Below the pieces are notes generated by a model, which saw nothing but the letters and a program-made list of their open reading frames with translations, was not told the DNA's origin and searched no databases. From Pocillopora damicornis (Eukaryota), in NCBI RefSeq assembly GCF_003704095.1, contig NW_020845063.1:1-64000 (forward strand): 64,000 nt of DNA. Direction: 5' to 3'. The translations under genes were made by a program, and so were the position numbers. Of the stretch, positions 1 through 26,262 are shown piece after piece (position 1 is the first letter of the stretch; every line of letters starts with the position of its first letter).

Positions 1-979
1 GAGCCATTATCGAGATTCCTAAGCAGCTGTTTTATGATAACGAGCTGAATGAATGCGCTGGAGATTTCAGGTAAAAAAAAATCATTCGCAATTTTTTTTT
101 TCAAAAAGACCAGATATTAAAAAGTCATAGCAAATGAGAAAACAGCTACACTTTTAAGACACTAGCTACATCAAAATGTATTGTAGGAAACACCTCATTA
201 GCAAGCTGCCCGTAACACAGGCGGTGATACCTATTGGAGAGTTGTCTTGAGGCCCAAAAGCATGCTAATCTACGCATGACTCGCGCTTTATTTGACNNNN
301 NNNNNNNNNNNNNNNNNNNNNNNNNNNNNNNNNNNNNNNNNNNNNNNNNNNNNNNNNNNNNNNNNNNNNNNNNNNNNNNNNNNNNNNNNNNNNNNNNNNN
401 NNNNNNNNNNNNNNNNNNNNNNNNNNNNNNNNNNNNNNNNNNNNNNNNNNNNNNNNNNNNNNNNNNNNNNNNNNNNNNNNNNNNNNNNNNNNNNNNNNNN
501 NNNNNNNNNNNNNNNNNNNNNNNNNNNNNNNNNNNNNNNNNNNNNNNNNNNNNNNNNNNNNNNNNNNNNNNNNNNNNNNNNNNNNNNNNNNNNNNNNNNN
601 NNNNNNNNNNNNNNNNNNNNNNNNNNNNNNNNNNNNNNNNNNNNNNNNNNNNNNNNNNNNNNNNNNNNNNNNNNNNNNNNNNNNNNNNNNNNNNNNNNNN
701 NNNNNNNNNNNNNNNNNNNNNNNNNNNNNNNNNNNNNTCATTAACTGTTTATCTTTCAGTCGTTATCGCTAATTGGAATTCTCTTTTCATGCCAAGGTGC
801 AAAAGATCCAGAAAATGATTGAAAAAAAACGCTTTGGTGACGAAATCAAAGTTGGCAGCGTGGAAGAGTTTCAGGGGCAAGAAAGAAGAGTAATCATCTT
901 GTCAACAGTCAGGAGCACCAAGAAAGAATATCTGGAGATGGACAAGGACTTCCGCCTCGGATTCCTCAACAATCCCAAG
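1..979 (+). CDS. MOV10: MOV10-like helicase 3' exons of a second copy on the plus strand (1-70 and 797-979)
   Basis: [24 protein letters not shown]. The 183-nt exon VQKIQ...GFLNNPK differs at 2 of 61 aa from the minus-strand exon 1920-2102. Confidence 0.85.
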
Positions 980-1403
980 GTATGGTCTCCAGTTAACTTT
1001 TGCGTTTGACTAAACCCGTCATAAGCAGAGGCAGGTTTTTCTGTGTGTTTATTTTTTATTGTAATTCCTACCATTGTTATTTTTTTATTATTATTATCGG
1101 TTACTTCAAGGAATAAAGATTCAATTGTGGTTGGGGGAAAGTTGGTAAATTGAAAATAGTAGAAATAATGACTGGCTACATTTTTAAAAAGGTTCAAAAC
1201 GCCTTCGAAGGGTAAGAAATGGCTGGTTTAATCACATTTACGTTTATCATACCTCTACTTCAGCCATTGAATCTCAAGGTTTGTAATTTTGGTATTTTCC
1301 CTANNNNNNNNNNNNNNNNNNNNNNNNNNNNNNNNNNNNNNNNNNNNNNNNNNNNNNNNNNNNNNNNNNNNNNNNNNNNNNNNNNNNNNNNNNNNNNNNN
1401 NNN

Positions 1404-3797
1404 TGAGAATCAAGAGAGCCTGGGCACGAGTTATGGCCACGTTGAATCTCTGGGGGATAAGAGTAAGAATGTTACTCGATAAAAGTGCGTTAGATAATCT
1501 AAAGGGATGTGCGATACCGGAGTCTACCTGTATATCCATGTACTTCTTTTCCATCCATACCCGATCTCCTTTGGGCATGACATAAATGTTTTGCCCTCAG
1601 TTAGGGAAAATACCAAAATTATAAAACCTTGGGATTCATGGCTAAAGGAGAAGTATGATAAACGTAAATGTGATTAAACCGGCCATTTCTTACCCTTCAA
1701 AGGAGTTTTGAACCTTTTTAAACATTTAGCTAGTCATAATTTCTACCATTTTCAATTTACTAACTTTCCCCCAACCACAACTGAATCTTTATTCATTAAT
1801 GTACCAATAATGTTAACAAAAATAATAATGGTCGGAATTGCAATAAAAAAAAAGCACCAACAAACCTGCCCCTGCATATGGCGGTTTAGTCAAACACAAA
1901 GATTAACTGGAGACCATACCTTGGGATTGTTGAGGAATCCGAGGCGGAAGTCCTTGTCCATCTCCAGATATTCTTTCTTGGTGCTCCTAACTGTTGACAA
2001 GATGATTACTCTTCTTTCTTGCCCCTGGAACTCTTCCACGCTGCCAACTTTGATTTCGCCACCAAAGCGTCTTTTTTCAATCATTTTCTGGATCTTTTGC
2101 ACCTTGCCATGAAAAGAGAATTCCAATTAGCAATAACGACTGAAAGATAAACAGTTAATGATGAGATCTGCTGGGATGTTGGACGCCCAGGGTGGGGAAC
2201 TGTCAATTTAAGAGATGAGCTCGGATCACTAAAATGTTGAGCGTGATGTGATGCATGCCAAGTTCTTTACCTTATAGTTGGAGGAATGAGCCCGGGCCAC
2301 GAGGCCTGGTGACAACAACTGGATAATTGGTAACGCAAACGAGTAGACAATTCTTTTGGGGAAATAATGAATTGGAATGCCGTTTGAAAAGATTTTATCA
2401 TGTAAAAAAAATATCACAGATTGTACGTATCGAATCGTCTAACGCCAGGAACAATGGAAGATAAGTTCCACACTTGTACTTACTTGTCTTTTGTAAGGAG
2501 ATATCACCCCAATCATCTCAGGTTTTAAGTGCTTTAGTCCTCTGCTCCTCACATTATCGTCTAACAGTTTCCTCAGGTATCGCTCAATAGTTTCCACCTC
2601 AGCCACATTAAAGAAGGAAGGGCTGCTACCTTCTCTCTCGTCCTTACCAAACACCGGATGGAAAATGATCGGGAAGTTCTTATTCGGAAGCTCTTCCCAG
2701 CCTATCATCACATTTCTTGGACAAAACAGGTGAATATTAGCAGTGCAATGTTTTACATTCCGGTTCGGTTGACGTAGGAAAGTAGNNNNNNNNNNNNNNN
2801 NNNNNNNNNNNNNNNNNNNNNNNNNNNNNNNNNNNNNNNNNNNNNNNNNNNNNNNNNNNNNNNNNNNNNNNNNNNNNNNNNNNNNNNNNNNNNNNNNNNN
2901 NNNNNNNNNNNNNNNNNNNNNNNNNNNNNNNNNNNNNNNNNNNNNNNNNNNNNNNNNNNNNNNNNNNNNNNNNNNNNNNNNNNNNNNNNNNNNNNNNNNN
3001 NNNNNNNNNNNNNNNNNNNNNNNNNNNNNNNNNNNNNNNNNNNNNNNNNNNNNNNNNNNNNNNNNNNNNNNNNNNNNNNNNNNNNNNNNNNNNNNNNNNN
3101 NNNNNNNNNNNNNNNNNNNNNNNNNNNNNNNNNNNNNNNNNNNNNNNNNNNNNNNNNNNNNNNNNNNNNNNNNNNNNNNNNNNNNNNNNNTCGTAGGCAG
3201 GACATGACGTCATTAGCCGTTCCAAAAGAGAAGTTTCTGTGAATGTGAGACAAAGGCGACTCATTTAAAAGGAAGTTTTCCCTCCTTTTAGGCGGGTAAG
3301 TAGCAAAACTCTTTGATTATCNNNNNNNNNNNNNNNNNNNNNNNNNNNNNNNNNNNNNNNNNNNNNNNNNNNNNNNNNNNNNNNNNNNNNNNNNNNNNNN
3401 NNNNNNNNNNNNNNNNNNNNNNNNNNNNNNNNNNNNNNNNNNNNNNNNNNNNNNNNNNNNNNNNNNNNNNNNNNNNNNNNNNNNNNNNNNNNNNNNNNNN
3501 NNNNNNNNNNNNNNNNNNNNNNNNNNNNNNNNNNNNNNNNNNNNNNNNNNNNNNNNNNNNNNNNNNNNNNNNNNNNNNNNNNNNNNNNNNNNNNNNNNNN
3601 NNNNNNNNNNNNNNNNNNNNNNNNNNNNNNNNNNNNNNNNNNNNNNNNNNNNNNNNNNNNNNNNNNNNNNNTTGGGGATCTGAGGATCGGGCCTAACTGC
3701 TTAGGGTCTCCCGCAAGCACCAGCTGACCGCCACTGGGATTATTGGGGTCCAGGAGGTCCGCCACAGGGATGATACACTCAGGTTCTGTTGCATGAC
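1404..3797 (-). CDS. MOV10: MOV10-like helicase 3' exons, minus strand, gap-interrupted: 3672-3797, 3191-3236, 2484-2715, 1920-2102, 1404-1449
   Basis: SF1 helicase motifs: GHATEPE...[34 protein letters not shown]...[45 protein letters not shown]. Canonical splice sites where not cut by gaps. Confidence 0.88.
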
Positions 3798-3899
3798 CNN
3801 NNNNNNNNNNNNNNNNNNNNNNNNNNNNNNNNNNNNNNNNNNNNNNNNNNNNNNNNNNNNNNNNNNNNNNNNNNNNNNNNNNNNNNNNNNNNNNNNNNA

Positions 3900-24476: not shown

Positions 24477-24586
24477 ATACAGTGAGCGTTGAGATCGCTG
24501 AATTACAGCTCTTAGTAACTATTCCAAGTATATACAGTGAGCGTTGAGATCACTAAAGAACAGCTCTAATTAACTATTCTAAGCAT
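24477..24586. repeat. Two diverged tandem copies of a 55-bp unit
   Basis: ATACAGTGAGCGTTGAGATC...ACAGCTCT...TAACTATTC repeated at 24477 and 24532. Confidence 0.85.
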
Positions 24587-24789
24587 AATATTCAACGTTA
24601 AGTATGTTTTGAGATATTCGAGCTGATTTACCGCAAAAGGCGCCAAAGGAAAAGCCTTAACTTGACTCAGTTCCTCTTTAAGTGTTCCATAATGACGCTA
24701 TATTACATCTTCGGATCAAACTCACCTTAAATGTCGATTTAAGAACGTAGTTAGTTAGTAGAGTAACTTTCTTGGTATCATTCATATAA

Positions 24790-24809
24790 TTACGTCACCT
24801 TTCTGGGAA
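24790..24809 (-). promoter_or_regulatory. CRE-like (TTACGTCA) + GAS (TTCTGGGAA) composite upstream of a putative non-coding first exon (donor AG|GTGAGT at 24726) of the STAND gene
   Basis: Same order, 3-bp spacing and orientation relative to the gene as in the MOV10 promoters. Confidence 0.55.
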
Positions 24810-26262
24810 ACCACAGGATTTTTCTTTGTTTTTTTTTTTCGGATACGTTCCCATAGTTCACTGCGGGCTTCATTAAAATTCAATTAGGAGAGGTAGACTG
24901 AGTGCGAGGAACATCAAATGACTTCCAACTTTTAAACCTCTCGTGACAGAATCTGTTTGCTGCATTTATTTACAGATGATTCGAATCTTCGATGAAAATC
25001 GGAAAGTGTTAACGTGCCAGTAGAATTGAAGGGAGTTGAGGAGAAAAAACCAGAAACAAGAGAAGCACTTTTTCTCTGTGTTTATTCGGTGAATATTTCT
25101 GTAAAATTGTTGTGCAATACGAGAAGAAGAGAGTACGAATTGCAAATCATGCTGACGAATTCCTCAATGATTTACTGTTATCATTTTAAATATGGATGCA
25201 AATATGTCTCAGTTCATTGCTCCTGGCTAAGATCGTGTTTGAAATAGCGTTGAAACGATAAAGTTATTTTAGTGTGTACTAAGTTTATCACTGAATTGTT
25301 CTCAACGGCTAACTTCCAATACTTTTCGTGATTTATGTGGTAAAGCAAATCATTTCTTCTATCCACGAAATAACTGTAGATAAAAGAAGAGCCAGAAAAG
25401 ATCATCAATTCTTGGAATTGCGCCTGGCCTGAAAACTAAATGTGGTCATTCAAGCTTTCGATTAGATTGGTATGTGCAAGTTAAACCAGTGTTTCTCTGC
25501 TTTGAAAATTCTATTAAAGCTGTCCTTTTTGCACCTAAAGGGAATTTAACCTTTGATTTATTCAAGCCAGATTTCTCTTCTTCTACTACGGGAATGAGAG
25601 TCCGAAATATCTTTTAGCATCTCATTTTCTTTACATTAGAAATCAGAAAACAGACAATTTGAAAATAAATTTGTATCAAGGGAAACAAAGTCCTTTCACC
25701 AACTTGTTTTGCAGTGATCTGATATTGATCTCCAATCCGGTCGAGTTCTTCATGGGGCGCGGGGAAAACTATATGGCTTGTCAGAGCTAATCACAAAGCA
25801 CTTATTTATGTGTGCCCATATTAAGGACTTAACCTAAAAGACATAAATATTATAGGGGAAATTTTATAATGCTCAAGTCAATAATTTAAAATGAGCATTA
25901 TTAACAGCGCTAACTGAAGTGCGTCAAGGTGAACCAGGGTTTTCAAGAAAGCGTTCCTTTAAAAAGGAGTCGGTGATTCAGAATAATTTAAAATTCATTG
26001 ATCCTCTACCAAAGAGGCTGATTCCCAATCAGGTTTCAGCCGGGCGAATACGAGGAAACAAAAATAACAATCACTTGTCCTTTGTTAAAGTAGGCAGGTG
26101 TACTATGGTAATAGCAACTTAATGATTATCATTTGAACGAACGAAACGGCTCGTGAAAACCACAAGCACTTAGTATACATTGAATTTCCGCATTTAACGC
26201 CAGTTGTCGCTTGTCGCTAAACAGAAAGGTCCCCAATCTTTTCTTCTGCTACTTTGGTAAAG

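What the first reader, a model, noticed from the sequence alone, without database searches (positions are those of the whole stretch)
1..25600. Putative RNA-defence island: duplicated MOV10 + OB-fold-like ORF + HEPN-STAND-ANK
Seen: three kinds of genes predicted to act on nucleic acid or immunity are adjacent within ~25 kb, share regulatory motifs, and lie in a duplication-rich, gap-rich region. The rest of the window is ordinary single-copy genes. Inference: a helicase / ssNA-binding / nuclease-receptor module reminiscent of prokaryotic defence islands. Functional coupling is unproven.
Basis: inference. Interest (0 to 1): 0.7.

Follow-up and report, generated by a model that had tools for sequence, protein, structure and literature searches.

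The report
Coral MOV10 with promoter-sharing partner gene
In this coral, the RNA helicase gene MOV10 sits back-to-back with an unstudied small gene, predicted to fold like an RNA-binding barrel, across a conserved and likely immune-switched promoter, while the nuclease-receptor gene next door belongs to a known coral family and is likely just a changeable neighbour, not the third part of a defence island.

Summary
The three genes are real, adjacent and found in RNA assemblies. MOV10 has two true paralogues whose pieces are scrambled by scaffolding; all gaps lie in 1-6663. The CXorf38-type HEPN exon is spliced to NACHT-ankyrin (2001 aa), a known cnidarian architecture. The small ORF is not OB-like in a confident model (pLDDT 90.5): it is a KOW/SH3-like barrel plus helical hairpin, nearest the Ski2 arch (weak, Z 5.0), from a family without a Pfam entry. 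What is conserved is a pair, not a trio. MOV10-A and the ORF are head-to-head around a CRE+STAT-like element that recurs upstream of the ORF in 3 of 9 loci from other corals; a MOV10 3' end lies beside the ORF in 4 of 9. The receptor lacks the element and is the downstream neighbour in 0 of 5 informative loci, though its closest relative is next to the ORF in Desmophyllum. Unexpected: a transmembrane-like segment between HEPN and NACHT; the same exon precedes WSC repeats in a paralogue, so this may be a membrane-spanning HEPN receptor. Island reading partly supported; coupling untested.

The parts
1..296 (+). Misplaced, flipped MOV10 piece (exon for aa 768-790); belongs reverse-complemented in the gap 2786-3190
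   Evidence: Joint 1 to 3191 on opposite strands in 4 of 4 runs; RNA joint 70 to 2715; tblastn
738..1303 (+). Second copy of the MOV10 exon for aa 863-928 with flanking introns (91.5% to 1602-2161); orientation unreliable
1404..3798 (-). MOV10 3' exons (aa 680-943) in four gapped pieces; assignment to copy A or B unresolved, partly collapsed (depth up to about twice that of unique pieces in run X1)
3899..5433 (+). MOV10-B promoter element, 5' UTR exon, intron 1 and first coding exon (from 5225); about 70% nt to copy A, 47/67 aa
3900..3919 (-). CRE + 3 nt + STAT(GAS)-like element of MOV10-B (motif names from recalled consensus)
5534..6563 (-). MOV10-B middle exons (aa 342-460), 88% nt to copy A; spliced in RNA
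6664..13461 (-). MOV10-A: 5' UTR exon 13362-about 13461; coding exons 11990-11523 (ATG 11978), 10982-10743, 10132-9891, 9221-9117, 9049-8885, 8486-8343, 8013-7834, 7245-7098 (Walker A), 6694-gap
   Evidence: CT..AC joints in 3 of 3 RNA runs; Pfam; tblastn with P0041
13476..13495 (+). Conserved CRE/AP-1-like + 3 nt + STAT(GAS)-like element, 15-35 nt beyond the MOV10-A transcript 5' end, in the divergent promoter shared with the ORF
   Evidence: also in L014, L015, L017
14214..14684 (+). Intronless, single-copy 156-aa gene of a family without Pfam entry; predicted KOW/SH3-like beta-barrel plus long C-terminal helical hairpin
   Evidence: RNA cover
14685..16799 (.). Transcribed stretch between the convergent ORF and receptor gene (long or overlapping 3' UTRs; strand not known)
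   Evidence: RNA contig cover in 3 of 3 runs; one 5.3-kb contig spans 14205-19504
16800..21808 (-). Exon 2 of the receptor gene: NPHP3/TANC-type NACHT (Walker A aa 387-394, Walker B aa 498-502), winged helix, ankyrin repeats, C-terminal tail
22191..23187 (-). Exon 1 of the receptor gene: CXorf38/DUF4559 HEPN (R162-x5-H168), coiled coil, transmembrane-like segment aa 307-325
23520..23530 (.). NF-kB-like palindrome upstream of the receptor gene (consensus match only)

Best explanation
MOV10 and an uncharacterised 156-aa gene form a head-to-head pair around a promoter element conserved in several corals, which likely switches both on in an immune response, and the small protein is predicted to be a KOW/SH3-like barrel that likely binds RNA or RNA-protein particles in MOV10's pathway; the HEPN-NACHT-ankyrin gene is a separately transcribed member of a known coral family and likely a lineage-variable neighbour. 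Shown: gene structures, presence in RNA assemblies, the head-to-head layout (about 0.7 kb), the element and its recurrence, a Pocillopora MOV10 duplication, the scrambled assembly. Inferred: that a bZIP factor and STAT bind the element; that the ORF is co-induced; that the barrel binds RNA as the Ski2/Mtr4 arch KOW does, with the helical hairpin as stalk or dimer surface; that MOV10 unwinds viral or transposon RNA as in other animals; that the receptor's HEPN cuts RNA when the NACHT module brings two HEPN domains together.
For: Splice joints place the MOV10-A 5' end at about 13461, facing away from the ORF. The element TGAC[A/G]TCA-N3-TTC-N3-GAA is upstream of the ORF in the same orientation in 3 of 9 coral loci (3 of the 6 with over 500 nt upstream), profile scores 15.3, 14.9, 8.5 against a best of 6.6 in 60 shuffles, each with a minus-strand splice donor further up; in L015 it is 87 nt from the ORF's ATG. 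A MOV10 3' end lies tail-to-tail with the ORF in 4 of 9 loci, falling in two groups on the ORF tree. The ORF is single-copy, 61-98% identical in 19 of 20 relatives, with 62 clusters at 50% identity. Model pLDDT 90.5; top structural matches are Ski2 insertion (Z 5.0, rmsd 3.3, 82 aligned), Mtr4 arch (Z 4.2) and ribosomal KOW/SH3-type chains; the profile search independently ranks the same Ski2 region second of 4 (E 1.2). KOW domains of Mtr4/Ski2 bind structured RNA and RNPs (PMC5688999 passages). MOV10-like genes are cGAMP-induced in 6 of 10 Drosophila species and have lineage-specific paralogues (PMC10917227 passages); STAT, IRF and NF-kB motifs are enriched at poly(I:C)-induced Nematostella genes (PMC8476169 passage). 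The receptor lacks the element and is not the downstream neighbour in any of the 5 loci where that neighbour is visible (4 MOV10, 1 GPCR). No MOV10/UPF1-like helicase match lies on the 6 other contigs with a DUF4559 match (45 of 80 candidates scored).
Against: No induction or co-expression data: contigs cannot give levels. The element is not enriched genome-wide (6 matches against 6 for the reversed control) and was absent from L016, L020, L021 (614-1945 nt upstream). In L017 no MOV10 first coding exon was found in the 3.1 kb beyond the donor, so the upstream gene in L014/L015/L017 is only inferred to be MOV10. Structural matches are weak (Z under 8; Foldseek no match at E 0.001). Head-to-head pairs often have unrelated functions (general knowledge). 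ORF and receptor have consecutive tags in Desmophyllum (OS493_034052/034053, KAJ7370123.1/KAJ7370124.1) and that protein is the window receptor's nearest relative (77% in the NACHT region), so their adjacency is old, not a recent accident.
Confidence: 0.55

Rival explanations
1. Passenger synteny: the ORF shares MOV10's promoter and stays linked to it for regulatory reasons only, with an unrelated function (for example a Tudor-like reader), and nothing in the region is functionally coupled.
For: Fold matches include Tudor, PWWP and Sm barrels at tied Z. The gene downstream of the ORF varies (MOV10, GPCR, receptor). Immune genes are abundant and tandemly duplicated in corals (PMC10236652 passages; at least 30 NPHP3_N matches in this genome).
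Against: The ORF stays next to MOV10 through rearrangements that change its other neighbour, keeps the element within 87 nt of its ATG in L015, and its best fold matches are RNA-associated barrels.
Confidence: 0.25
2. One reading: MOV10 unwinds, the small protein holds RNA, and the HEPN-NACHT-ANK protein cuts it, with linkage kept by selection.
For: All three are in RNA assemblies; ORF and receptor are neighbours in both this genome and Desmophyllum; HEPN and Walker motifs are intact; the receptor has an NF-kB-like site; ORF and receptor 3' ends abut or overlap in RNA.
Against: 0 of 9 other loci show the receptor; in 5 the slot is taken by another gene. No shared element. In Oculina the named ORF and the named DUF4559-NACHT-ANK gene are 170 locus tags apart, though that one is a distant paralogue. 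Paralogous receptors have no helicase match on their contigs.
Confidence: 0.15
3. The MOV10 'duplicate' is only a second haplotype assembled into the gaps.
For: Pieces sit between 100-N gaps, one is provably misplaced, 3' exons are 92-97% identical.
Against: 5' regions are only 70-78% identical; 3 of 3 DNA runs hold both 5' regions; in X1 both are at similar depth (68-92) with shared pieces about double, and one unbranched contig runs from MOV10-A exon 1 through the ORF; a long-read Pocillopora cf. effusa gene set has 2 proteins whose best hit is this MOV10, Porites lobata 1 in the orthogroup (PMC10236652 Additional files 11, 12).
Confidence: 0.05

Closest known systems
CXorf38 (DUF4559, Swt1-like) HEPN fused to NACHT and ankyrin in cnidarians (PMC3710099; PMC10236652 Additional file 16)
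   Same: Same domain order; DUF4559 E 1.3e-29; R-x-H motif and Cys-rich insert; 'DUF4559,NACHT,Ankyrin' is listed for 5 coral species (17 of 27 DUF4559 rows).
   Different: A basic-hydrophobic-acidic segment lies between HEPN and NACHT; the passages and rows I saw do not mention it. Motif spacing is R-x5-H against R-x4-H in human CXorf38.
MOV10 / SF1B UPF1-like helicase
   Same: All MOV10-specific Pfam domains, 68-100% to Stylophora MOV10 exon by exon.
   Different: Two paralogues with a fast-diverged N-terminal exon in copy B (46/67 to Stylophora against 57/67 for A); promoter shared with a small gene.
KOW domain of the Ski2/Mtr4 helicase arch and ribosomal KOW/SH3 proteins
   Same: Predicted small beta-barrel followed by long helices; best structural and a weak profile match.
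   Different: Free-standing protein, 8-13% identity, Z at most 5.0; linked to an SF1 helicase by a promoter, not inserted in an SF2 helicase.
Prokaryotic defence islands and STAND-nuclease (Avs-like) systems (recalled; STAND+HEPN in bacteria noted in PMC3710099)
   Same: Helicase, small nucleic-acid-binding candidate and HEPN-STAND within 25 kb.
   Different: Three separate spliced or intronless transcription units on opposing strands, gene set not constant, no prokaryotic or viral relative of the ORF found.
IRE1 / RNase L type membrane or ligand-gated HEPN(KEN) RNases (IRE1 topology recalled)
   Same: Would couple a sensor on one side of a membrane to a HEPN-fold RNase on the other.
   Different: Reverse order (N-terminal HEPN), no kinase, exchangeable C-terminal module (NACHT-ANK or WSC repeats); topology only predicted.

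Membership tests
Defence island (prokaryote-type multi-gene system) | Same gene set recurs together across genomes | tested here: inconclusive
   Trio seen in 0 of 9 loci; MOV10-ORF linked in 4 of 9 directly; ORF-receptor adjacent in Desmophyllum by tags; MOV10 there not checkable
Defence island (prokaryote-type multi-gene system) | One operon or one shared control element for all genes | tested here: not met
   Three transcription units (-,+,-); composite element absent from 14300-64000
Defence island (prokaryote-type multi-gene system) | Joint protection against an invader | not testable with these tools
   needs infection or knock-down experiments
MOV10 helicase | MOV-10 N-terminal, Ig-like and helical domains plus SF1 core | tested here: met
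   PF21632, PF21633, PF21635, PF13087 above cut-off
MOV10 helicase | Intact Walker A and B | tested here: met
   Walker A exon identical to Stylophora (50/50); Walker B lies in a gap but is read in loose ends at 3798 in 3 runs
CXorf38/Swt1-like HEPN | DUF4559 domain | tested here: met
   E 1.3e-29, 104 bits against cut-off 27
CXorf38/Swt1-like HEPN | Rx4-6H motif | tested here: met
   R162-x5-H168; R..H kept in 20 of 21 aligned rows
CXorf38/Swt1-like HEPN | RNase activity on dimerisation | not testable with these tools
   also only predicted for human CXorf38
STAND/NACHT receptor | NACHT-type NTPase with Walker A/B, winged helix and repeat sensor | tested here: met
   NPHP3_N E 8.8e-19, HTH_TANC1 E 2.7e-14, Ank_2 E 6.5e-68; PF05729 itself below cut-off (24.7 < 26.7)
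STAND/NACHT receptor | Cytosolic NTPase and sensor | tested here: inconclusive
   TM-like segment before NACHT; same exon precedes WSC repeats in a paralogue; sequon evidence weak
OB fold | Structural match to solved OB domains | tested here: inconclusive
   No row recognisable as an OB domain among the top 50, but all matches are weak
OB fold | Helix or long crossover between strands 3 and 4 (recalled definition) | tested here: not met
   In the model the six strands are linked by 7, 5, 2, 2 and 5 residues with no helix of 4 or more between them (a prediction)
KOW/SH3-like small beta-barrel | Strand-meander barrel matching solved KOW/SH3 domains | tested here: inconclusive
   Best Z 5.0, rmsd 3.3, 82 aligned (Ski2 insertion); most of the top rows are of this class but under Z 8
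KOW/SH3-like small beta-barrel | RNA or RNP binding | not testable with these tools
   needs binding assay

The most novel reading that the evidence does not exclude
Corals carry a two-part antiviral RNA module, MOV10 plus a free-standing Ski2-arch-like KOW cofactor under one STAT-type promoter, and next to it a membrane-spanning HEPN RNase receptor whose NACHT-ankyrin module (or WSC repeats in a paralogue) senses on the luminal or outer side and switches on a cytosolic RNase, an inverted IRE1-like design.
Probability: 0.15. Interest if true: 0.8.

Novelty: new variant of a known kind. Interest (0 to 1): 0.48.

Why it matters
The 156-aa family has no Pfam, PDB or Atlas label, yet is kept beside MOV10 and its promoter element across several corals, which gives a direct, testable candidate for a new cofactor of animal antiviral RNA surveillance. 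The predicted membrane segment in coral CXorf38-HEPN receptors, if real, changes how this known family is thought to work. The island as a whole is not established, and the striking duplicated and gapped look is largely an assembly effect.

Tried and rejected
ORF-MOV10 complex prediction: no answer, score 0.00, alignments not used, partner fold uncertain; not evidence either way. First model on 17 sequences was weak (pLDDT 67.6) and was replaced. Foldseek PDB and viral libraries: no match at E 0.001. No OB-named row. Atlas: no usable hit for the ORF or P0004. Pfam on 53 family members: no shared family. Viral or prokaryotic origin of the ORF: no relative by pattern scans (low sensitivity). IRF-, ETS- and TATA-like motifs: frequent across the window, not specific. 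Genome-wide enrichment of the element: none. Glycosylation as proof of luminal NACHT-ANK: 208 sequons against about 152 expected over 14 related sequences, but only 5 of 35 conserved Asn columns after the segment are mostly sequons, about chance; of 5 invariant NACHT cysteines, 2 are shared with each of two TM-less controls: inconclusive. MOV10 in the Nematostella poly(I:C) supplement: 0 hits in the one file held, about 4.0 million characters, possibly cut or unannotated: no conclusion. Earlier scan findings by relatives, sequence and words: none. ORF lists of 20 kb upstream of the GPCR copy on C2633 showed nothing recognisable as MOV10, ORF or receptor (by eye only, the planned BLAST did not run). 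Not in print as far as searched: no paper on a coral MOV10 gene pair or a TM-bearing CXorf38 receptor turned up (listings; open-access library only). The fused-protein search was limited to 2000 residues, so full-length orthologues of the 2001-aa receptor in close relatives would be missed.

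
Full report
Setting. The window is the start of scaffold G000:C1698. Named relatives make it a Pocillopora-like stony coral: the small ORF is 97% identical to a Pocillopora meandrina protein. All 7 N-runs lie in 1-6663.

MOV10. Pfam and tblastn with Stylophora MOV10 (P0041) place one continuous copy, MOV10-A, on the minus strand from 11978 to the gap at 6664, and 3' exons for aa 680-943 in gapped pieces between 3798 and 1404. RNA contigs from 3 runs of 3 studies give CT..AC joints for the introns, including an untranslated first exon at 13362 to about 13461. Second-copy pieces lie at 3899-5433 (+, about 70% nt), 5534-6563 (-, 88%) and 738-1303 (+, 91.5%). Their order is not a gene. 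In 4 of 4 runs base 1 joins 3191 on the opposite strand, so 1-296 belongs, flipped, in the gap 2786-3190. The copies are likely paralogues: 3 of 3 DNA runs hold both 5' regions, run X1 shows 68-92 depth on unique pieces and about 130-230 on shared ones, and one unbranched 6.2-kb contig runs from MOV10-A exon 1 past the ORF start (X1 may be the source individual). In PMC10236652 (supplement rows seen) two P. cf. effusa proteins have this MOV10 as best hit. Copy B's first exon has diverged more (A-B 47/67 aa; A-Stylophora 57/67; B-Stylophora 46/67) than the later exons (52/55, 44/48, 60/62). No other close MOV10 exons are in the genome (45 of 80 candidates scored).

The small ORF. 14214-14684 encodes 156 aa, single-copy, covered by RNA contigs. 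20 relatives were found among 36 candidates, named ones from Desmophyllum, Oculina and Pocillopora; a profile finds 62 clusters at 50% identity, nearly all unnamed. No Pfam family is shared by the 53 aligned members. With that alignment the model reaches pLDDT 90.5: six strands with short links, then two long helices. The best structural matches are the Ski2 insertion domain (Z 5.0, rmsd 3.3, 82 aligned), ribosomal KOW/SH3-type chains and the Mtr4 arch (Z 4.2); Foldseek gives Tudor-type rows without significance; the sequence profile ranks the same Ski2 region second of 4 at E 1.2. These are weak, but they point to an SH3/KOW-like barrel, and the model lacks the helix or crossover of an OB fold (definition recalled). 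Mtr4/Ski2 KOW domains bind structured RNA and RNPs (PMC5688999, passages), which is the basis for the proposed role.

Promoter. MOV10-A and the ORF point away from each other, with RNA ends at about 13461 and at or before 14164. At 13476-13495 lies a CRE-like octamer, 3 nt, and a TTC-N3-GAA site; MOV10-B has the same 20 letters at 3900-3919. A profile of the two window promoters hits upstream of the ORF in L014 (E 1.1e-4), L017 (E 1.5e-4) and L015 (E 0.014), all with TGAC[A/G]TCA-N3-TTC-N3-GAA and a minus-strand donor further up; 0 of 60 shuffles reached 8.5. That is 3 of 9 loci, 3 of 6 with more than 500 nt upstream. The strict pattern occurs 6 times in the genome against 6 for the control, so it is a conserved local element, not a shown regulon signature. 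It is absent from 14300-64000; the receptor has an NF-kB-like palindrome at 23520 instead. Factor names are recalled consensus labels. STAT, IRF and NF-kB motifs are enriched at poly(I:C)-induced Nematostella genes (PMC8476169, passages), and MOV10-like genes are cGAMP-induced in Drosophila (PMC10917227, passages).

Synteny. L017 has both the element upstream and a MOV10 end downstream, as if the ORF lay between tandem MOV10 copies, but no MOV10 first exon was found in its 3.1 kb beyond the donor. Against my reading, Desmophyllum has the ORF and the nearest relative of the receptor as consecutive genes on one contig (orientation and MOV10 not seen).

The receptor. Exon 1 (23187-22191) and exon 2 (21808-16800) are joined in one RNA contig of 1 of 3 runs and give 2001 aa: DUF4559 HEPN with R162-x5-H168, coiled coil, hydrophobic segment, NPHP3/TANC-type NACHT with intact Walker motifs, ankyrins. 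CXorf38-HEPN with NACHT and ankyrin in cnidarians is described in PMC3710099 (passages) and tabulated in PMC10236652; HEPN-NACHT expansions are general in anthozoans (PMC8260672, passages). This genome has at least 3 more genes of this layout (C824 twice, C3883). The segment at aa 307-325 (hydropathy 2.25) has basic residues before and acidic after it, and a peak of at least 1.6 at that place in 14 of 20 relatives (one search shows the flanks in 14 rows). The homologous exon on G000:C4335 and in Stylophora P0038 is followed by WSC repeats, an extracellular-type domain (localisation recalled). That suggests a single pass with HEPN inside and the C-terminal module outside; 19 cysteines after the segment are invariant in 14 of 14 rows. 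Sequon evidence is inconclusive, an earlier amphipathic stretch could form a hairpin that keeps NACHT cytosolic, and no TM predictor was run.

Verdict. The adjacency is real, the gap and inversion pattern is mostly assembly, and the conserved unit is the MOV10-ORF pair with its promoter element. The receptor is a known architecture with an unreported-looking membrane segment and an old but not constant place beside the ORF. Calling the trio a defence island goes beyond the evidence; it works like a loose immune neighbourhood. Papers also seen as passages: PMC8195603, bioRxiv 10.64898/2026.05.28.728550. bioRxiv supplements and one FASTA supplement of PMC10236652 could not be seen; no gene-order table was available there.

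Noticed in passing
G000:C4335 (L029:783-5983, minus strand) and P0038: CXorf38-type HEPN, coiled coil and TM-like exon followed by at least 5 WSC-like exons: a candidate single-pass receptor with a cytosolic RNase.
   Followed up: partly
window 26263-27228: Rhodopsin-type GPCR with a 90%-identical copy at G000:C2633:113243-114205; its relative follows the small ORF directly in L015.
   Followed up: partly
window 14685-16799: RNA contigs cover the whole stretch between the convergent ORF and receptor; in L018 and L019 one contig likewise holds the ORF and the MOV10 3' end, so antisense 3' overlap may be a recurring feature.
   Followed up: partly
P0161 (and P0176, P0177): A member of the small-ORF family is fused to a CID domain (E 3e-9), an RNA-processing module; JGI records only, may be chimeric.
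   Followed up: no
P0148, P0168: One family member has two tandem copies of the barrel; another comes from a EukProt record, so the family may reach beyond corals.
   Followed up: no
P0040, P0031, L009, L010: Other DUF4559 architectures: with Macro and WWE; with GT4 and TRADD-N; and TM-less single-exon forms with a P-loop domain.
   Followed up: no
window 34001-38000 and 56001-62000: Strong CpG depletion (observed/expected 0.05-0.24) typical of methylated gene bodies, whereas 1-26000 is not depleted (0.63-1.14).
   Followed up: no
window 35776-35987, 39666-39873, 63467-63660: Three copies of a roughly 170-nt non-coding dispersed repeat (70-80% alike).
   Followed up: partly
window 39104-39293, 56493-56696, 24474-24583: Two long hairpin (MITE-like) elements and a 55-nt tandem pair.
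   Followed up: no
L015:about 415-490: A palindromic insertion between the minus-strand donor and the conserved promoter element.
   Followed up: no
P0095: A Stylophora MOV10 gene model carries about 200 extra residues at the aa 928 intron, likely an intronic mobile element read as exon.
   Followed up: no
window 30182-31063, 48001-49626, 53832-54719, 35991-37771, 62850-63065: A 294-aa frame without Pfam match, a C2H2 zinc-finger gene, a trypsin-like gene, and exons resembling TMEM115 and CLASP (the last two names recalled, not from a call).
   Followed up: no
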